NCBI GenBank assembly: GCA_050251055.1
Contig: JBFWNL010000009.1
Span: forward strand, 75,344-139,343
DNA: 64,000 bases
Direction: 5' to 3'
Origin: Bacteriovoracia bacterium
GTDB taxonomy: Bacteria > Bdellovibrionota > UBA1018 > JBFWNL01
The position numbers and the translations under genes were made by a program. Within the stretch, counting starts at the first letter, position 1. Each line of letters opens with the position of its first letter. Below the pieces are notes generated by a model. It ran no database searches. It had not been told where the DNA came from and worked only from the letters and a program-made list of their open reading frames with translations. Below, piece after piece: positions 19,959 to 30,884 of the stretch.

Positions 19959-19978
19959 TTTAGGTCCATATAAAACGG

Positions 19979-20014
19979 CGAAGGCCGCGACTGAGAACTC
20001 AGTCGCGGCCTTCG
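19979..20014. terminator. Strong hairpin between convergent genes
   Basis: CGAAGGCCGCGACTGAG-AA-CTCAGTCGCGGCCTTCG, 17-bp perfect inverted repeat. Confidence 0.75.
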
Positions 20015-20055
20015 TGCTTCTAACCCCACCTTATACTAGGTAAATCTGCTTAATC

Positions 20056-20325: not shown

Positions 20326-20454
20326 TCAATCCTGCCTTGTTTGAGTTTCTTAAATTTTAACGAGTATTTGACTATTTTTATATGTTAATAAATCATGACC
20401 TTTCAAAAAAAAATCATTTAATTTCAATTAGTTAAAAACAGAGAATGTTAATAG

Positions 20455-23400
20455 TTAAATATTATGAACGATTTTATAGTGAGTATTGCGACCTCGGCCA
20501 ATCGGCGCGATCAGCCTCATTGAAACTAATGAACGCAACTCACGCTTGCATAGCGTCGGGCTGACTTTGAGTGCCTGTTCGATGGTGGCCCGGTGAATCC
20601 GTCCGTTGTTTTCCAAATACTTGATGATCCAATCCTGCCGCTCCGTCAGCACGCTGGGACCGTCGGCAAAATTCGTAGCGATGCCATACCTCACGTCGGC
20701 ATTGACCGAGTATTTATGCCCATGACTTTCCACAACGGAGTAACCGGAGATCGACTTCATCAGCGAACGAACGCGTTTTACTGATGTGTAAATACGGGCA
20801 TCGTGTACGAGTGGGTTGTACTTTTCGTGCCAAACATGAAGAGCAAGCTCTTCCTTTGAAAAAGCCTCCTGCGGATGCCGCAATAAAAACTGAAGCAAAT
20901 TATAAATAATCGGCTTTGCTCCCAGCGGGACCGTTTTATCTCCCGAAGACGCGGTTCTATCTTCTTCTCTAAGCAATAACTCGTATTCTCGACTCTTAAC
21001 CTTTTGATCCAGTTCACTACGGTTATAAATAAAGTTCTTGCCTCGAGAGTAGACTTGAACCTTTTCCGGATTCTTCAATCCCAGCAGGGCATAAAGTGCG
21101 TCATAGTATTTCTGATCCTGCTCAGTGGGCTCGATTCCGAATGTGACAAATTCCGGAAAATAAACCCTCGACACTTTTCGGACGAGGTAACTCAGCTTGC
21201 TTCCGTCAGGAATTTTCGCGAGCCAGGCTTTTGCCTGGGTATTTGATTGCCGGCGCAAAGCCACGGCCGCCAAACCGATCCAGTAAAGGTTTAGATCCTC
21301 CACAAAGAAGACCCTTTCCATGAGAGCGCGATTCGACAGCAGCCGTCGCTCTGCGGCGTCGACCCTGCCCAAAGCCAAGTCGATTAACGCCAAAAAACAA
21401 GTCGATCGAATCTGCCAGACGAAGTAGGATCGCCGCGACGCATTCTCGTTACAATGGATCAAGCTAGCTTCCGCTTGTTTTAACTGTCCTCCTAGAATTT
21501 CCCATACGCCACGAAAGAACCGATACTGAATAGAAATGTAGCCCGCTTGAGACACCCCGGGCCACGCCGGCAACTGCTTTAGCAGTTCCCCAATTTTAGG
21601 GCGCATCGAGAATCGGTAATACGCCTCCAAAGCCATCAAACCCACGGTCGGCCGTTCAAAAAGGCTTAACTGGTCTAAAACTTCGGGGGCTACGGCCTTA
21701 TCGAGGAGCTTAAAATCCCCTAAAAACAAAGCCTCGGCGATATTGATAAGGGCTACCGAAAAAGCCCGTCTAGAGGGAGAGTTCTGAATTTCGGATACCA
21801 AGAGCCTCTTACGGGCTAGCTCCAAAGCCAAACCGTAGTCTGACATGCGAAAGTAACAACTAATTACGTTCTGCATGGAAAGGTCTTCAGGGGTTGTAAT
21901 CATCGGATACTGAATGCCTTCCACCTGGTGAGAGACCTGGTCCTTCGCCTCCGTCAAAAGCCCTTGATTGAAATAGTCGTTGCTTCGGTAAATACGGCAA
22001 TAAGCCAAGAATCCTCTATACGAATGCCTTTGGCACTCCGTCTCCGCCGCCTGCACCTCCTTGCGAAATTCATCTAGATTTCCGACGAAAAACAATGCGT
22101 TCACGAGGTTCAGCCTGGCCTTCACCACGTCATAGTGCTTCCCTGCGAGCGAATAGTTCGCCAAGGATTCCTGGAAGTCGCTTACACTCTCGAAGGTTCG
22201 CCCGGCACGAAACTTTGAATACCCTTCCCCGAAAAGAATATCGGCATTCAGCAAAGCCCGCTCGGGGTCATTGCCGGGAATCAGCCTCCTGGCCTCATTA
22301 AAACAATCCAGCGCTTTTTCTGCGTCAAAAACTGAATAAACCAATCCTCGCTCAGTAAATACTCGAGCGAGATACATCCCCCCATCCCCAAGGCCGGCGG
22401 CTCCTTCCTCAAGGTCAGATAATACTTTGAGCGAAGAATCTGAGTCCCCACGCCGATCAAGACTCCTCGCCAAAAATAAGTCCAACTCAAATCTAGAAGC
22501 ATCCTCCCAGTTTACGATTCTACCTTTCAAATCCGAACACTCTTCCACGATCTCGGCATAAGCTCCCGCCGCGTACATCAACCTCAACCGAATCAACGCA
22601 CTCTCCGGCGCCAAATGCCCCCGCAGCGCCGCGCTTAACTCCAAGCAAACCACCGATTCGCCTTGCGCCACCATCGTCGGCGCGATTTTCGAGAAAAGCG
22701 CCGCGGCTTCCGGAATTTTTCCGAGCTTGATCATTTGCCAAAGCTTCTCTTTTAATCCAGCCTCGCCACCGCCCACATCGGACAGGATCTCCTCGCGCAA
22801 CGTTTTTTCTTGTCCGCCTTCGATCCGGCGCAACGTCCACGCCAAAAAATCCGGCGCGATCTCCAGGCGCCCCCCTGCTTTACGAACTAAGTCATGTGCA
22901 TTCAGGGATCGAAATACATCGGAAGTAAGCAGGGCCGCGAGACTCGAGGCGAATTCCTGCTCAAAACGCACGAGACCGATCCGACGCACGTCTTGCCAGG
23001 CTCCGCGATCCCAACGCGCGGTAATCTTCTCGAACGCGCGCTCGCGCACATTTACAAGCACGTCATTCAACTCACCCACGGTCAGCACCTTCCCTTCGAG
23101 GGAAGAGGCCGCAAGCGCCATTTTGATTTGTTGCGGATTGCCCTGCGTCTGGGTGAGTAACGCCCCCGCGAGCACGCGGGCGTCGGCGCCGAGCGCGCCC
23201 TGGCTCGCGTTCACGAGCTGCTCGATCTGCGCTACGTTCAATCCCAAGTGCCGGTAAGTGAAAAGGTCGAATAGCACGTTGAGCTCGAGATTGGGCACCG
23301 ACTTCGCGGTGGCGATTAATCGCGCGGAACGCAGTCGCGAATGCAAGAACTCAACGAACACTTCCCAGTCGCGCACCTGATCGATGTCATCAATAAAGAC

Positions 23401-23709
23401 CACGGCCCGGTTACGCTCAAGGTGCTCAATGACGGCGTCTTGCAACCGCGTGAGCTCCGTCAGCTTCTGCCACCCCCGCAGAGACACCGCCTCTGCCAAG
23501 CGGCGAAACATGGCGGCGGGTTCGGGCTGATCGGAAACCGAGAGCTGAACACGCGGACCGGCTCCGAGCGACGCCGAACCCGGAGCCTCCAAAATCTGCC
23601 TCAGTAAGACGGACTTACCCGAGCCACTAGGCCCATAAAGAAGGGCGATTCGACGGCTTTCCCAGCCTCGATTTATGGTTTCGATGACTTCGGTGAGTAC
23701 TATCTGCAT
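20455..23709 (-). CDS. STAND-type (MalT/AfsR-like) regulator: NTPase + TPR + OmpR/PhoB-type wHTH + terminal HTH
   Basis: Walker A GPSGSGKS, Walker B VVFIDD, GNP motif, TPR-like helices, AFSKEELALHVW...IYTSVKRVR wHTH, LTERQDWII...G.GRNTHY. Confidence 0.8.
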   Translation of the reverse strand: MQIVLTEVIETINRGWESRRIALLYGPSGSGKSVLLRQILEAPGSASLGAGPRVQLSVSDQPEPAAMFRRLAEAVSLRGWQKLTELTRLQDAVIEHLERNRAVVFIDDIDQVRDWEVFVEFLHSRLRSARLIATAKSVPNLELNVLFDLFTYRHLGLNVAQIEQLVNASQGALGADARVLAGALLTQTQGNPQQIKMALAASSLEGKVLTVGELNDVLVNVRERAFEKITARWDRGAWQDVRRIGLVRFEQEFASSLAALLTSDVFRSLNAHDLVRKAGGRLEIAPDFLAWTLRRIEGGQEKTLREEILSDVGGGEAGLKEKLWQMIKLGKIPEAAALFSKIAPTMVAQGESVVCLELSAALRGHLAPESALIRLRLMYAAGAYAEIVEECSDLKGRIVNWEDASRFELDLFLARSLDRRGDSDSSLKVLSDLEEGAAGLGDGGMYLARVFTERGLVYSVFDAEKALDCFNEARRLIPGNDPERALLNADILFGEGYSKFRAGRTFESVSDFQESLANYSLAGKHYDVVKARLNLVNALFFVGNLDEFRKEVQAAETECQRHSYRGFLAYCRIYRSNDYFNQGLLTEAKDQVSHQVEGIQYPMITTPEDLSMQNVISCYFRMSDYGLALELARKRLLVSEIQNSPSRRAFSVALINIAEALFLGDFKLLDKAVAPEVLDQLSLFERPTVGLMALEAYYRFSMRPKIGELLKQLPAWPGVSQAGYISIQYRFFRGVWEILGGQLKQAEASLIHCNENASRRSYFVWQIRSTCFLALIDLALGRVDAAERRLLSNRALMERVFFVEDLNLYWIGLAAVALRRQSNTQAKAWLAKIPDGSKLSYLVRKVSRVYFPEFVTFGIEPTEQDQKYYDALYALLGLKNPEKVQVYSRGKNFIYNRSELDQKVKSREYELLLREEDRTASSGDKTVPLGAKPIIYNLLQFLLRHPQEAFSKEELALHVWHEKYNPLVHDARIYTSVKRVRSLMKSISGYSVVESHGHKYSVNADVRYGIATNFADGPSVLTERQDWIIKYLENNGRIHRATIEQALKVSPTLCKRELRSLVSMRLIAPIGRGRNTHYKIVHNI

Positions 23710-27925: not shown

Positions 27926-28564
27926 CTGAACTATCTGCGTTTCCTTTCCATCGCATTTTTAGTGGTCCAAGGCGCGTGCGCGCGGGGATCGCAAAGCATC
28001 GAAGCTTCGGGGGGAGGTTCTTCCTCGGGCAACCCGATTACCCCGGTGCAGATTCGTTTGAATCGCCTGCCCACGGTCAACGTTTCTACCGTCGTCGGCA
28101 TTTCTGAAATCTACTTCATTAAACCCAATGGCGACGCCGTGCTCGCTTATCAAGCGACCGAGTTCTCGGGGCTGTTGGCCTGGAACGAGGAATTCAATCC
28201 GCTGCCGCTCGCGGCGGCGCCCGCCGGCAGTTATATCGGCCTCCACATCGTGAACCACGCAACCACGATCGTGAACCAGCACGGCGAAAACTTCACCACG
28301 GAAGATCCTTACACAATCCGGTTTGACGGGGTGTTTGAAGTACCGAACGCCCAAGAGGCCCGCATGGGACCGCTCGAGATATCCAACTCGTCGTTTTTCA
28401 CGCGCGCCAGCCGCATGCGTGACGTGAACGCCTTTGGCTACGTGTATTCCGCGATCGGAAAAATTCAAGCCCACCCCCTGGAAGGGAAAGACGGCGTGAC
28501 CGAAGCGGTGAACGTGGTGGAGATCGTTCCGCTTCAGCCCCTGACCCCACCCGGCGGCCCCTAA
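27926..28564 (+). CDS. Hypothetical lipoprotein, probable CTG start
   Basis: In-frame upstream extension of the 27962 ORF gives (M)NYLRFLSIAFLVVQGAC lipobox; GGGGG just upstream; GGGSSSGNP motif. Confidence 0.6.
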   Translation: MNYLRFLSIAFLVVQGACARGSQSIEASGGGSSSGNPITPVQIRLNRLPTVNVSTVVGISEIYFIKPNGDAVLAYQATEFSGLLAWNEEFNPLPLAAAPAGSYIGLHIVNHATTIVNQHGENFTTEDPYTIRFDGVFEVPNAQEARMGPLEISNSSFFTRASRMRDVNAFGYVYSAIGKIQAHPLEGKDGVTEAVNVVEIVPLQPLTPPGGP

Positions 28565-28571
28565 GCCAAAA

Positions 28572-29402
28572 TCAAGCTTCTTCGGCATGGGCGGTGGGAA
28601 ACGCCGCCATGGTTACGTGGTAGACCGCGTTGCGGGAAGGATTCGCTTGGCTCAGCTCGCGAATCTTCTGCATGGTTTCCTCGAATAAAACCGTCACTTT
28701 TTGGTAGGTATCGGCGTCCATACCGATAGTGAAGCCGGAAACGTGGCGTTTCTCGCGCTCCACCCGGTGGAGCGAATCAGCACCCAACGCTAGCATCGCG
28801 ATGTGAAACTCTGTGAGCGCTACCCGGTAGACATTACCCTCGCACTGGATGTGCTTATCCCCCGTCGAAACCCGGCCCTGCTTATCCACCACTTCAATGA
28901 AGCCATGCTCTTTTAGAAACCGAATCGCCTTTTTGATCTCGGCTAGCGGCACCGTGCGGACGAGCCGCCGGCTAATCCACTCGGCATCGAGCTTAAAGTG
29001 CTCAAGCTCCGCCATTTCGCGAATCGTGACGTAAAACCACCGGCTGAAGTAGCGAGAAACCTCAAATTCCTTAGGATTCATGCGCCGGTACGTACGGAAG
29101 TTCTGGATGGCATGAAAGCCTTCGGATCTTTCCTGCAAGTCCTTCGATTGCCCCATGGCGCGCAACGAGCGGAAGAAACTCGCTTCGGATGGAGAAAGAT
29201 CCAAATGCGGAAGGACTTTTTCCAAAGCCTTTTCCGTGAGCGGACGCTTACGCAATAAGACCTGGGGAAAGAAGGCGCTCGAAAAGCCCGCCCGACGGGC
29301 GAACGCCCGGACGGTGAATCGCCCTTTAGCGGCTTTCTTGTAGGCGAACCAGTCCTTCAAAAAGGCAATGGGATCGTGGTAGCTGCGTATATCGGGTTTC
29401 AC
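28572..29402 (-). CDS. TIGR02147 / DUF4423 family HTH protein
   Basis: FLKDWF..KK....FTVRAFARRAGFSS, FSRWFYVTIREM, WISRRL, A...FH..ML.L..DSL, NAVYHV..A.FP. Confidence 0.9.
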   Translation of the reverse strand: MKPDIRSYHDPIAFLKDWFAYKKAAKGRFTVRAFARRAGFSSAFFPQVLLRKRPLTEKALEKVLPHLDLSPSEASFFRSLRAMGQSKDLQERSEGFHAIQNFRTYRRMNPKEFEVSRYFSRWFYVTIREMAELEHFKLDAEWISRRLVRTVPLAEIKKAIRFLKEHGFIEVVDKQGRVSTGDKHIQCEGNVYRVALTEFHIAMLALGADSLHRVEREKRHVSGFTIGMDADTYQKVTVLFEETMQKIRELSQANPSRNAVYHVTMAAFPTAHAEEA

Positions 29403-29529
29403 ATCTAAAATGCTAACAAAATATCAGTCAAAATTCAATATACGGTCAGCAGTACTATGTTACCTAATTGTAATAATTAATTATTTATAAAATATAATCA
29501 AAATCTGCTAACAAAATATATAACATTAT

Positions 29530-29558
29530 TTGACTTACACCGTCGGAAATCGTATGCT
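29530..29558 (+). promoter_or_regulatory. Sigma70-type promoter
   Basis: TTGACT (29530-35), 17 nt, TATGCT (29553-58), downstream of an AT-rich UP-like tract. Confidence 0.75.
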
Positions 29559-29564
29559 GTTTAC

Positions 29565-29795
29565 AAGGGGGCAGCAAAACGGGTTGGGGCAAAGCGGTTC
29601 GCTTGTGGCGACGCCATTCGGGGTAAAATGCCAAAACCCACTACTCCCTAAAATCTTGGTTCGGGGCGCTCACGTTGTCATTCGTAGTGAACGCGTTTTT
29701 TCGACACCCGTGTCTGGCCCATTATCCCTGCGGCCGCGTCGAAAAGGCGAGTCTGAATTCCATTTCGGGGCGAATTCGGGCGACAACGTGAGCGT
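29565..29795 (+). ncRNA. Putative novel structured non-coding RNA
   Basis: Begins at the predicted TSS; 13-bp perfect closing stem 29667-79/29782-94 encloses 12-bp and 10-bp stems that need G-U pairs on the + strand; structured 5' domain; no credible ORF. Confidence 0.6.
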
Positions 29796-29805
29796 GTGGC
29801 ACTCC

Positions 29806-30477
29806 TCACGCGCGTTCCGCGACGACCAGAGTCTTACGCAAAAACTTACCCAAAGCACTGCCTTCCGGTAAATGCTGGTGAATCAAAGCCCATGCCTCGT
29901 CATCCGAAAACGCTCCCGAAGCTTCCCACAAATCCTCGTATAGATGCCGAGTCGCGCCGACCGCGAGCGAAGGAAACGCGCCGTCATCCACCTCCCCAAA
30001 AGCCACGATCGAAAGACGGGTGAAGAGCTCCTTAACGCCCTTGCTATAGGCGCTTTCGTTAAACTTCCCTTGCAGATCGGTCATGCGCTTGAGCTCCTTG
30101 GTGGAAAGCGGCGAATCACTCTCCAAGGCTTCCAATATCCGGCGAGCGGTTAGGGAGTAACGGCTCCCCCCGGGTGGAATCCCGGCGTCCTGGCGCCGAT
30201 ACACGGCCAATAGCGCGGTGAAAAGCGGGCGAGAAAAGAACGTAGCGCGGCCCTGATACCACTTCACGTAGACAACCTGCCGACAGTCGCTTAAGCGCTT
30301 CATGAGATGCCACATGTCCGCAACGCGGTTATCGCCGCTCTCATCCCATTCCCAGCGCATGGGCGTGCGTGGAGAGAATTCATACCAAAGCGAGCGCGGC
30401 TCACGCTTATTGTTCACGGGAAACACGAGCAACACTCCGGCTCGATTGATCTTGCTGATGGCGCTGCGCTGGTTCAT
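29806..30477 (-). CDS. Hypothetical winged-helix protein (AlkZ/YcaQ-related)
   Basis: VVYVKW..GRATFFS and RILEAL....PLSTKELK wHTH-like motifs. Confidence 0.6.
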   Translation of the reverse strand: MNQRSAISKINRAGVLLVFPVNNKREPRSLWYEFSPRTPMRWEWDESGDNRVADMWHLMKRLSDCRQVVYVKWYQGRATFFSRPLFTALLAVYRRQDAGIPPGGSRYSLTARRILEALESDSPLSTKELKRMTDLQGKFNESAYSKGVKELFTRLSIVAFGEVDDGAFPSLAVGATRHLYEDLWEASGAFSDDEAWALIHQHLPEGSALGKFLRKTLVVAERA

Positions 30478-30656
30478 CCGTCTCTTGGTGTATCACGAGA
30501 AAGCCGGACGGCAATCTTGCGGTTGGCGCGAGATTGGGATTCCTCGGTTGGATAGCGGGCGGCTCGTTTTAAAGTGCACGGGCGATTTTGCTTCGCGCAT
30601 CCTGCGCTACGCAAGATCGCTAAGGAAGGTCGCGCCTCCAGCGCTCCTCACCGCAT

Positions 30657-30815
30657 GAACCATTTTTCTTCTCAATTTTATCTTAAAAAAAGACGCCGAC
30701 CCGGGAGGGGGCATCCGCGGGCCACGAGGGCGCTGAGCGGTTGAGCGCATGGAAGCGCGTCCCCCTCACGGGTCGGCGTCTTTTTTTAAGATAAAATTGA
30801 GAAGAAAAATGGTTC
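30657..30815. repeat. Long inverted repeat (47 bp perfect, 55 bp with one mismatch) abutting the tRNA 3' end
   Basis: 30657-30703 is the exact reverse complement of 30769-30815; 49-nt spacer. Confidence 0.95.
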
Positions 30816-30884
30816 GGGCGATTGGGGTTGAACCAACGACCCCCACCGTGTCAAGGTGGTGCTCTGCCACTGAGCTACGCCCGA
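30810..30884 (-). tRNA. tRNA-Val (GAC)
   Basis: TCGGGCG-TAGCTCAGTGGCAGAGC-A-CCACC-TTGACAC-GGTGG-GGGTC-GTTGG-TTCAACC-CCAAT-CGCCCGA-A-CCA cloverleaf with encoded CCA. Confidence 0.97.

What the first reader, a model, noticed from the sequence alone, without database searches (positions are those of the whole stretch)
29530..29795. Orphan promoter-driven, highly structured ~230-nt RNA divergent from a TIGR02147 gene
Seen: TTGACT-N17-TATGCT on the + strand puts a TSS near 29565, and no credible protein gene follows before the convergent CDS stop at 29806. The 3' domain forms a four-way junction: P1 CGCTCACGTTGTC(29667-79)/GACAACGTGAGCG(29782-94), perfect; P2 TTCG/TGAA(29681-91); P3 CGTTTTTTCGAC(29694-705)/GTCGAAAAGGCG(29738-49) with inner CCGTG/TGCGG; P4 GTCTGAATTC(29751-60)/GAATTCGGGC(29772-81), abutting P1. 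The non-Watson-Crick positions within these helices are G-U on the + strand (A-C on -), agreeing with promoter direction. A 5' domain starts at the TSS (AGGGGGCAG 29566-74 / CTACTCCCT 29641-49; GGGTT/AACCC; two inner hairpins). It does not look to me like tmRNA, RNase P, SRP or 6S. Inference: an undescribed stand-alone ncRNA, possibly the target or partner of the neighbouring TIGR02147 protein.
Basis: partly seen in the sequence, partly recalled or inferred. Interest (0 to 1): 0.85.

Follow-up and report, generated by a model that had tools for sequence, protein, structure and literature searches.

The report
Orphan promoter-driven structured transcript, unconserved
A promoter that normally drives secreted-protein genes next to a family of uncharacterised regulators here drives about 235 bases with no clear gene; the stretch folds into a stable three-armed RNA, but no relative exists to show that the fold matters.

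Summary
The sequence features are at the stated coordinates. The + strand promoter is probably real. The same TTGACT-N17-TAnnCT-G core sits 134-138 nt from the start of three other TIGR02147 paralogs in this genome, and it also occurs at four further AT-rich sites.

Only the 3' domain (29667-29794) folds better than shuffles (z -4.2 on +, -3.2 on -). P1, P3 and P4 are robust, P2 is weak, and the 5' domain is not significant. In a scan of the whole 64-kb window the domain ranks 57-109 of 7982 windows, so it is in the top 1-2% but not exceptional.

There is no Rfam match. I found no homologue of the stretch anywhere, and no close relative of this organism has been sampled. Covariation therefore cannot be tested, and no RNA data exist.

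By my reading, all seven other promoters of this type drive protein genes, five of them signal-peptide proteins, often through structured leaders. This one has a GGGGG ribosome-binding motif but no well-placed start codon.

Most likely reading: a non-coding, leader-like transcript of a TIGR02147-controlled module that has no protein partner. A functional sRNA or a small orphan protein remains possible. Interest is modest.

The parts
28572..29402 (-). TIGR02147 / DUF4423 family gene (276 aa, GTG start). One of 33 paralogs over the cut-off in this genome.
   Evidence: NCBIfam TIGR02147 E 9e-47. Pfam DUF4423 E 3e-28. 36 matches in the genome, 33 over the cut-off.
29410..29438 (-). Promoter-like site of the TIGR02147 gene itself: TTGAAT (29438-29433), 17 nt, TAGCAT (29415-29410). 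The GTG start follows 7 nt after the -10 box, so the mRNA would be leaderless or nearly so. This is inferred.
   Evidence: Pattern scan of the genome, row C9 - 104781; coordinates read.
29411..29424 (.). Proximal copy of the 14-nt direct repeat TGCTAACAAAATAT. It overlaps the -10 box of the TIGR02147 promoter. Proposed operator.
   Evidence: D8 (two copies, 100% identical, spacing 95). 0 of 100 shuffles give a repeat as long.
29506..29519 (.). Distal copy of the 14-nt repeat. It ends 10 nt before the -35 box of the + strand promoter. Proposed operator.
   Evidence: The 13-nt core GCTAACAAAATAT occurs at only one other place in the genome (C10:82310), with a one-mismatch copy about 96 nt away in the same AT-rich region.
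29530..29558 (+). Sigma-70-type promoter TTGACT-N17-TATGCT. The transcription start is inferred near 29565.
   Evidence: The same core lies 134-138 nt from the start codon at paralog loci C4:329003, C1:552266 and C13:8789, and at four further AT-rich sites.
29567..29571 (+). GGGGG, the ribosome-binding-type motif that precedes the start codon in sister modules. Here no ATG or GTG follows within 4-10 nt; the first start-type codon in the open frame is TTG at 29584, 12 nt away.
   Evidence: Read. Homology to the C10 module ends at this motif.
29566..29649 (+). Not better than shuffles and dependent on where the transcript ends.
   Evidence: z -0.58 on +. The outer helix has p about 0.9 only if the RNA ends at 29800 and about 0 otherwise.
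29667..29794 (+). 3' domain: a three-way junction closed by the perfect 13-bp P1, with P3 (29694-29749) and P4 (29751-29781). P2 (29681-29691) is marginal.
   Evidence: (I18).
29584..29871 (+). Open frame, 95 codons from TTG (105 from the ATG at 29554, which lies inside the -10 box). It overlaps the end of the convergent gene by 66 nt. Coding status is unresolved.
   Evidence: Called as a singleton 105-aa protein. Codon score -0.085, 3rd percentile of long genes. AlphaFold2 mean pLDDT 37.5.
29806..30477 (-). Convergent AlkZ-related gene (223 aa), single copy. Its neighbourhood is not conserved in relatives.
   Evidence: Pfam PF24741 E 2.9e-17. Single copy. No shared neighbours in 11 loci.

Best explanation
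The stretch is the transcribed part of one copy of a paralogous control module that accompanies TIGR02147 (DUF4423) genes in this genome.

The module has five elements:
- the regulator gene;
- a roughly 130-nt very AT-rich spacer;
- two copies of a paralog-specific direct repeat about 95 nt apart, one over the regulator's own -10 box and one 10 nt upstream of the divergent -35 box;
- a divergent TTGACT-N17-TAnnCT promoter;
- a GGGGG ribosome-binding motif.

I propose that the TIGR02147 protein binds the two repeats and so sets both its own expression and that of the divergent transcript.

In the sister copies that transcript is an mRNA, mostly for a signal-peptide or pilin-like protein, often preceded by a 60-140-nt structured leader. 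In this copy no protein partner is recognisable. The promoter would make a non-coding, leader-like RNA of about 230 nt whose 3' half folds into a stable three-way junction. Having no intrinsic terminator, it probably reads on antisense into the last codons of the AlkZ-related gene.

Shown:
- the sequence features;
- the recurrence of the promoter and repeat architecture;
- the thermodynamic stability of P1, P3 and P4;
- the absence of a known RNA family or any homologue.

Inferred:
- transcription itself;
- binding of the repeats by the protein;
- the non-coding status;
- read-through.

Whether the RNA has a function of its own is open.
For: - Promoter: the TTGACT-N17-TAnnCT-G core sits 134-138 nt from the TIGR02147 start in 4 of the 21 lower-scoring paralog loci examined (ours, C4:329003, C1:552266, C13:8789). 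Two of these are the closest paralogs of our gene, at 56% and 53% identity.
- Repeat: it is exact, 14 nt, spaced 95 nt, with 0 of 100 shuffles as long.
- Repeat spacing elsewhere: the longest repeat is spaced 94-96 nt in 5 of the 21 loci.
- Second locus: the same repeat, spacing, promoter type and GGGGG recur only at C10:82150-82330. That copy has no TIGR02147 gene beside it and drives a 95-aa signal-peptide, cysteine-rich ORF.
- Homology limit: similarity between the two loci stops at GGGGG. Downstream DNA and protein local scores are not above shuffles (219 of 300 and 196-234 of 300 shuffles score as high).
- Sister modules: by my reading, all 7 other promoters of this type are followed on the same strand by an ORF of 95 aa or more, with a G-rich ribosome-binding motif 0-8 nt before its ATG. 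Leaders run from about 10 to about 140 nt. One (C1:552130) contains a canonical intrinsic terminator.
- Start codon here: the nearest start-type codon is a TTG 12 nt after GGGGG.
- Composition: the stretch is 56-57% G+C, like coding DNA and like the sister leaders, while the spacer is about 25-32%.
- Fold: P1, P3 and P4 have p of at least 0.9 in three transcript contexts, apart from the outermost P1 pair. The + strand folds 6 kcal/mol better than the - strand.
- Terminator: none was found on either strand next to the domain.
Against: - No RNA data exist, so transcription is unproven.
- The promoter hexamers alone are at chance level.
- A frame is open across the whole stretch, and gene callers took it for a protein.
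- Its codon score (-0.085) is low for this genome but equals that of the ORF I took as the partner gene at the sister locus C1:552266 (-0.087). Codon usage therefore does not exclude coding.
- The fold ranks only 57-109 of 7982 windows.
- The - strand also beats shuffles (z -3.2).
- The repeats at C4:329003, C1:552266 and C6:217700 are not individually significant (10, 35 and 19 of 100 shuffles).
- Binding by the TIGR02147 protein is pure inference. The one paper found that mentions the family gives no function (passage only).
Confidence: 0.42

Rival explanations
1. One reading: a functional, stand-alone structured small RNA gene. Its three-way-junction domain is the working part, for example as a protein-binding or base-pairing regulator under control of the neighbouring TIGR02147 protein.
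For: - A promoter supported by paralog comparison.
- Coding-like G+C kept in a genome whose spacers are AT-rich.
- A robust, well-defined P1/P3/P4 fold.
- All four G-U pairs lie on the + strand (read).
- No known family matches.
Against: - No homologue was found in 60 relatives by blastn, in 116 genomes of the order by a covariance model (best foreign hit E 0.09, 16.6 bits), or in 74 related loci.
- There is no second copy in the genome.
- There is no terminator.
- The fold is only in the top 1-2% of the window.
- The four G-U pairs were found by a reader who was looking on the + strand, so their strand bias is weak evidence.
- Sister promoters drive protein genes.
Confidence: 0.2
2. A small orphan protein gene. 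Either 95 aa from TTG 29584 (105 aa as called from ATG 29554), or a 38-aa ORF at 29675-29791 behind GGGG at 29663-66, by analogy with the 37-aa ORF in the C4:329003 module.
For: - The frame is open for 113 codons and is called as a protein in the public collection.
- It is in register with the codon 6 nt after GGGGG (read).
- Its codon score and G+C by codon position are the same as for the partner gene at C1:552266.
- Partner genes of this family are mostly family-less orphans.
- The C4 module holds a 37-aa ORF after a leader of about 115 nt.
Against: - The ATG at 29554 lies inside the -10 box, upstream of the inferred start of transcription.
- TTG is 12 nt from GGGGG, whereas sister genes have ATG 0-8 nt away.
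- There is no signal peptide, unlike 5 of the 7 sister products.
- The codon score is at the 3rd percentile of long genes and typical of open non-coding frames (56% of those score as high or higher).
- G+C at the third codon position is 0.58 against 0.71 for genes.
- The frame ends 66 nt inside the convergent gene.
- It is a singleton among 5.8 billion clusters, although no close relative exists that could hold it.
Confidence: 0.22
3. The structure belongs to the - strand or to the DNA. It would be a 3' untranslated structure or terminator substitute of the AlkZ-related gene, a barrier between two convergent units, or a chance or rearrangement-born inverted repeat without function.
For: - The domain begins 12 nt after the AlkZ-related stop codon.
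- The - strand also folds better than shuffles (z -3.23, 1 of 300).
- About 8 perfect 13-bp inverted repeats within 150 nt are expected by chance in a 3.77-Mb genome (my arithmetic).
- Many coding windows fold better.
Against: - There is no U-run after any helix on the - strand, although the genome does use canonical terminators (for example 19966-20016, and the C1:552130 leader).
- P4 is poor on the - strand (z -0.95).
- The 11 + 5 AlkZ-related relatives carry nothing similar downstream.
Confidence: 0.14

Closest known systems
Bacterial trans-acting or orphan small RNAs with their own promoter, the 'massively expressed' orphan riboswitch RNA of Bdellovibrio included (this example is recalled, not from a call)
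   Same: Own sigma-70-type promoter, no downstream gene on the same strand, about 200-250 nt, a stable multi-helix fold, and an intergenic site.
   Different: No intrinsic terminator, no conservation in any genome searched, no Rfam family, and no expression data. The promoter belongs to a module that otherwise drives protein genes.
Structured 5' leaders / attenuators of the sister TIGR02147-associated modules in the same genome (C1:552130, C4:329925, C6:211031, C2:93064)
   Same: Same promoter type and the same position next to the AT-rich spacer. Also G+C-normal and structured in the first 100-140 nt.
   Different: The sister leaders end at a ribosome-binding motif plus ATG of a real ORF, and one holds a canonical terminator. 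Here no ORF with a proper start follows, and the sequences are unrelated.
Divergently transcribed local regulators with two operators, in the style of autoregulated helix-turn-helix repressors/activators (general knowledge)
   Same: The regulator gene is divergent from its presumed target. A repeated site overlaps the regulator's own -10 box, and a second site lies just upstream of the target -35 box.
   Different: The repeats are direct, not palindromic. They are about 95 nt apart and flank an extremely AT-rich spacer. The protein family (TIGR02147/DUF4423) has no demonstrated DNA binding.

Membership tests
Any Rfam 15 family (riboswitches, ribozymes, 6S, RNase P, tmRNA, SRP and Y RNA included) | Covariance-model score at or above the family's gathering score | tested here: not met
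   In the whole window at gathering thresholds, the only match is tRNA at 30813-30884. For 29400-29900 at E up to 10, the only match is a chance snoR01 hit in the AT-rich spacer (E 3.4).
Housekeeping RNAs (6S, RNase P, tmRNA, SRP) | The element is the genome's only candidate for that RNA and is conserved in relatives | tested here: not met
   6S is at C4:170863, RNase P at C13:3198 and tmRNA at C5:289718. SRP RNA was not detected anywhere. The element has no homologue in 116 genomes of the order, which a housekeeping RNA would have.
Stand-alone sRNA gene | Own promoter | tested here: met
   TTGACT-N17-TATGCT, recurring at the same place in three paralogous loci. It has not been shown to be active.
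Stand-alone sRNA gene | Defined 3' end (intrinsic terminator) | tested here: not met
   There is no terminator-like site between 29565 and 29900 on either strand, and no U-run after P1.
Stand-alone sRNA gene | Conservation of structure with compensatory changes | not testable with these tools
   No homologue was found. The nearest relatives of the flanking proteins are 39-59% identical.
Stand-alone sRNA gene | Detected transcript | not testable with these tools
   No RNA run holds the stretch.
Cis-regulatory 5' leader / riboswitch | A regulated gene downstream on the same strand | tested here: not met
   The next gene is convergent and stops at 29806.
Protein-coding gene | Start codon at working distance from a ribosome-binding motif | tested here: inconclusive
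   GGGGG is at 29567-71. There is no ATG or GTG within 4-10 nt, and TTG follows at 12 nt. Sister genes have ATG at 0-8 nt.
Protein-coding gene | Codon usage of the genome's genes | tested here: inconclusive
   The score is -0.085, at the 3rd percentile of long genes, but it equals that of the sister partner gene at C1:552266.
Protein-coding gene | Homologous proteins or a family match | tested here: not met
   Pfam finds none. The collection of 5.8 billion clusters holds only the protein itself.
Repeated / mobile element (MITE-like, 13-bp terminal inverted repeats) | More than one copy in the genome | tested here: not met
   There is a single copy by blastn and by covariance model.

The most novel reading that the evidence does not exclude
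TIGR02147/DUF4423 proteins are a large, lineage-expanding family of local transcription regulators. Each recognises its own pair of direct repeats set about 95 nt apart across an extremely AT-rich divergent promoter region. In this locus one such module has been turned from a secreted-protein gene into the gene of a structured regulatory RNA. That RNA would be co-regulated in trans with a second target, the 95-aa secreted protein gene at C10:82150, which carries the same repeats. It would be the first RNA product, and the first predicted operator and regulon, for this uncharacterised family.
Probability: 0.15. Interest if true: 0.55.

Novelty: new member of a known kind. Interest (0 to 1): 0.3.

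Why it matters
The RNA by itself is a lineage-specific orphan candidate that cannot be validated by comparison, so it matters little for now.

The context is more useful. It gives a concrete, testable hypothesis for a protein family with no known function: TIGR02147/DUF4423, with 33 copies in this Bdellovibrionota genome.
- A predicted 14-nt binding site that occurs in two copies at exactly two loci.
- A conserved site spacing of about 95 nt.
- A conserved divergent promoter.
- A predicted target set of signal-peptide and pilin-like proteins.

If the RNA is made, it would show how such a module can be re-used for a non-coding product.

Tried and rejected
Searches for homologues, all without a usable result:
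- blastn of 29560-29800 against 60 relatives. The only foreign matches were two fragments of 24-26 nt.
- A single-sequence covariance model R1 run on the genome itself (self only); on 116 genomes of the order, G000 included (best foreign E 0.09); on 11 AlkZ-related loci with filters off (best E 0.49); and on 63 further loci totalling 233,089 bases (0 matches at E up to 1).
- The open frame translated and scanned in metagenome contigs (412 seed matches, none confirmed) and in viral contigs (13, none).
- The AlkZ-related protein used as an anchor in genome contigs (11 loci, 31-59% identity, no shared neighbours) and in metagenome contigs (5 loci, at most 58%).
- Protein collection: the ORF finds only itself. 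The TIGR02147 protein finds itself, three paralogs of the same genome (55, 53, 48%) and then 39% or less. No close relative has therefore been sampled.

Expression and population data:
- No RNA holder is listed.
- Laying three DNA runs gave identical sequence in the two likely source runs. The third run covered the stretch only at 29797-30010. No variant falls in the region.

Other tests:
- AlphaFold2 of the 95-aa frame without an alignment gave mean pLDDT 37.5, which is uninformative.
- Residual homology between the stretch and the C10 partner ORF: none. blastn-short against the sister divergent units gave only promoter-core matches.
- Rfam on six sister loci found only a tRNA.
- SRP RNA was not found in the genome with RF00169 or RF01854. 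A motif hit at C3:315351 did not score in Rfam. I dropped the idea that the element is the missing SRP RNA because it has no homologue in the order.
- MITE, attC and tRNA-like readings were considered and dropped: the element is single copy, ARAGORN finds only tRNA-Val, and the attC core motifs, compared from memory, did not fit.
- Literature: one search for TIGR02147 / DUF4423 found one paper. I read only the passage that lists a DUF4423 protein as up-regulated during growth in prey (PMC12546842). Supplements were not seen.

Full report
What is there.

The finding lies in a 403-bp gap between a TIGR02147/DUF4423 gene (28572-29402, - strand) and a convergent AlkZ-related gene (29806-30477, - strand). 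The gap has two parts:
- a very AT-rich spacer at about 29403-29560, with 32% G+C in the 200-nt bin;
- a stretch of about 235 nt at 29565-29800 with 56-57% G+C, as high as coding DNA.

The genome is G000, a 3.77-Mb, 21-contig assembly that is 93.5% complete. It belongs to the Bdellovibrionota, judged from the titles of the nearest AlkZ-related loci.

Is the structure more than chance?
- The whole 236 nt is not convincing: z -1.78 on the + strand and -1.65 on the - strand.
- Split in two, only the 3' domain (29667-29794) stands out. It gives z -4.16 with 0 of 300 shuffles as good on +, against z -3.23 with 1 of 300 on -.
- The 5' domain gives z -0.58 on +.
- P1, P3 and P4 have pair probabilities of 0.9-1.0 in three transcript contexts, apart from the outermost P1 pair.
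- P2 reaches only 0.13-0.35.
- The outer helix of the 5' domain disappears if the RNA reads past 29800.

These z-scores use boundaries chosen to fit P1. I therefore scanned the whole 64-kb window with 144-nt windows, step 16, on both strands, adjusting the free energy for composition. The windows that hold the domain rank 57 and 109 of 7982 (z -2.8 and -2.4). That puts the domain in the top 1-2%, behind many coding windows and far behind a 60-nt inverted repeat at 30652-30820. The fold is real thermodynamically but not exceptional.

Known families.

There is no Rfam family at gathering thresholds in the window except one tRNA, and nothing in 29400-29900 at E up to 10 except a chance hit in the spacer. 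6S, RNase P and tmRNA lie elsewhere in the genome. SRP RNA was not detected at all. The element cannot be SRP RNA, because it has no counterpart in any of the 116 genomes of the order that were searched.

Homologues.

None was found.
- The element is single copy.
- blastn in 60 relatives gave nothing.
- A single-sequence covariance model in 116 genomes of the order gave nothing.
- The model also found nothing next to 11 + 5 AlkZ-related relatives or in the loci of TIGR02147 relatives and paralogs.
- Degenerate-pattern scans of metagenome and viral contigs found nothing.

The reason is sampling. The best foreign relatives of the flanking proteins are only 39-59% identical, and the neighbourhood of the AlkZ-related gene is not conserved. 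Covariation, the decisive test, cannot be run. No RNA run holds the stretch, and the DNA runs show no variants.

The context changes the reading.

The genome holds 33 TIGR02147 paralogs over the cut-off. About twenty of them have extremely AT-rich upstream regions, down to 2-18% G+C per 50 nt. Of 120 raw segments with at most 25% G+C, 22 lie directly upstream of a TIGR02147 gene. Those segments overlap and were not merged.

In four of the 21 lower-scoring loci examined, a TTGACT-N17-TAnnCT-G promoter points away from the regulator at 134-138 nt from its start. The four are ours, C4:329003, C1:552266 and C13:8789. C4:329003 and C1:552266 are the closest paralogs of our gene, at 56% and 53% identity. 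The promoter hexamers alone are at chance level (1 found, 1.0 expected). This recurrence is therefore the real support for a + strand start near 29565.

The spacer also carries an exact 14-nt direct repeat, TGCTAACAAAATAT, at 29411 and 29506 (spacing 95; 0 of 100 shuffles as long).
- The proximal copy overlaps a TTGAAT-N17-TAGCAT site whose -10 box ends 7 nt before the regulator's GTG.
- The distal copy ends 10 nt before the divergent -35 box.

The longest repeat is spaced 94-96 nt in 5 of the 21 loci. Only two of those repeats are individually beyond shuffles.

The 13-nt core of the repeat occurs at just one other place in the genome, C10:82310, with a one-mismatch copy about 96 nt away in the same AT-rich region. 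That locus has the same promoter type (TTGAGT-N17-TAATCT) and the same GGGGG motif, but no TIGR02147 gene. There the promoter drives a 95-aa ORF with a signal peptide and eight cysteines. Similarity between the two loci ends at GGGGG, and the transcribed parts are unrelated.

What the promoter type drives elsewhere.

A genome-wide pattern scan gave 17 promoter-like sites with an AT-rich upstream region. Eight have the TTGAC/G-T ... TAnnCT/TATGTT form. By my reading, the seven others are all followed on the same strand by an ORF of 95 aa or more with a G-rich ribosome-binding motif 0-8 nt before ATG. Five of those ORFs carry a signal peptide; the others are a pilin-like 340-aa ORF (C13) and a 957-aa ORF (C2:93064). 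Their leaders run from about 10 to about 140 nt:
- C1:552130 holds a canonical intrinsic terminator in its leader;
- C2:93064 has a perfect 19-bp hairpin;
- C4:329925 has a 37-aa ORF plus a terminator-like hairpin ahead of a 247-aa secreted protein.

Our copy has GGGGG at 29567-71 but no ATG or GTG within 4-10 nt. The first start-type codon of the open frame is TTG at 29584.

Coding or not?

One frame is open from 29530 to 29871, and a 105-aa version is on record as a called protein, a singleton.

Against coding:
- the ATG lies inside the -10 box;
- there is no signal peptide;
- the codon score is -0.085, at the 3rd percentile of long genes and typical of open non-coding frames;
- G+C at the third codon position is 0.58 against 0.71 for genes;
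- the frame ends 66 nt inside the convergent gene.

For coding:
- the ORF I took as the partner gene at C1:552266 has the same atypical score and composition;
- the partner proteins are mostly family-less.

AlphaFold2 without an alignment was uninformative. I put a small protein at about 0.2.

Verdict.

The best-supported reading has two parts.
- The promoter is one copy of a TIGR02147-associated control module. The regulator most likely acts on the two DNA repeats, not on the RNA.
- The 235-nt stretch is a non-coding, leader-like transcript of a module without a recognisable protein partner. It has a stable three-way junction and no terminator, so it probably reads antisense into the end of the AlkZ-related gene.

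A functional stand-alone sRNA is possible (about 0.2) but has no positive support beyond fold stability and kept G+C. The element is a new, unverifiable member of a known kind, an orphan sRNA or leader candidate. The more interesting lead is the predicted operator architecture of the uncharacterised TIGR02147 family.

Noticed in passing
window 30652-30711 and 30761-30820: A 60-nt inverted repeat, 95% complementary, with 49 nt between the arms. Its right arm overlaps the 3' end of tRNA-Val (30810-30884, - strand). It is by far the strongest fold in the window (z about -11.7), and Logan contigs break there. It could be a long tRNA terminator hairpin, an inverted duplication of the tRNA flank, or an assembly effect.
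   Followed up: partly
G000:C10:82150-82330 (not in the window): An orphan copy of the control module. It has the same 13/14-nt repeat with the same spacing of about 96 nt, a TTGAGT-N17-TAATCT promoter and a GGGGG motif, but no TIGR02147 gene. It drives a 95-aa signal-peptide, cysteine-rich ORF and is a likely second target of the regulator encoded at 28572-29402.
   Followed up: partly
G000, 21 TIGR02147 loci; e.g. C4:329003, C1:552266, C6:217700, C1:211444: Paralog-specific direct repeats spaced 94-96 nt lie in the AT-rich region upstream of 5 of the 21 paralogs examined. Upstream spacers reach 2-18% G+C in a 58% G+C genome. Of 120 raw AT-rich segments, 22 lie directly upstream of TIGR02147 genes.
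   Followed up: partly
G000:C1:552130 (- strand) and G000:C2:93064 (+ strand): Sister promoters of the same type with structured leaders. C1 has a leader of about 110 nt ending in a canonical intrinsic terminator before a secreted-protein ORF. C2 has a perfect 19-bp hairpin before a 957-aa ORF and no TIGR02147 gene beside it. These are candidate attenuators. No Rfam hit was found on the loci scanned, which did not include C2.
   Followed up: partly
G000 whole genome: No SRP RNA was detected with RF00169 or RF01854, even at lax E-values. In the RF00169 searches only 150 of the 248 first-look candidates were scored. A domain-IV-like motif at C3:315351 (- strand) does not score in Rfam. The SRP RNA may be unassembled or divergent.
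   Followed up: partly
window 19966-20016: A GC-rich hairpin between two convergent genes, an ordinary bidirectional terminator. It is the second strongest fold signal in the window.
   Followed up: yes
window 20340-20480: Another very AT-rich spacer holding ATTTGACT, the same -35 type, upstream of the 20455-23709 region. It has no TIGR02147 gene beside it.
   Followed up: no
window 27959-28588: Two long ORFs lie on opposite strands of the same stretch (209 aa on -, 200 aa on +). The - strand ORF has a codon score of 0.003 and an arginine/glycine-rich translation, so it may be spurious. Neither ORF has a family match among those tested.
   Followed up: no
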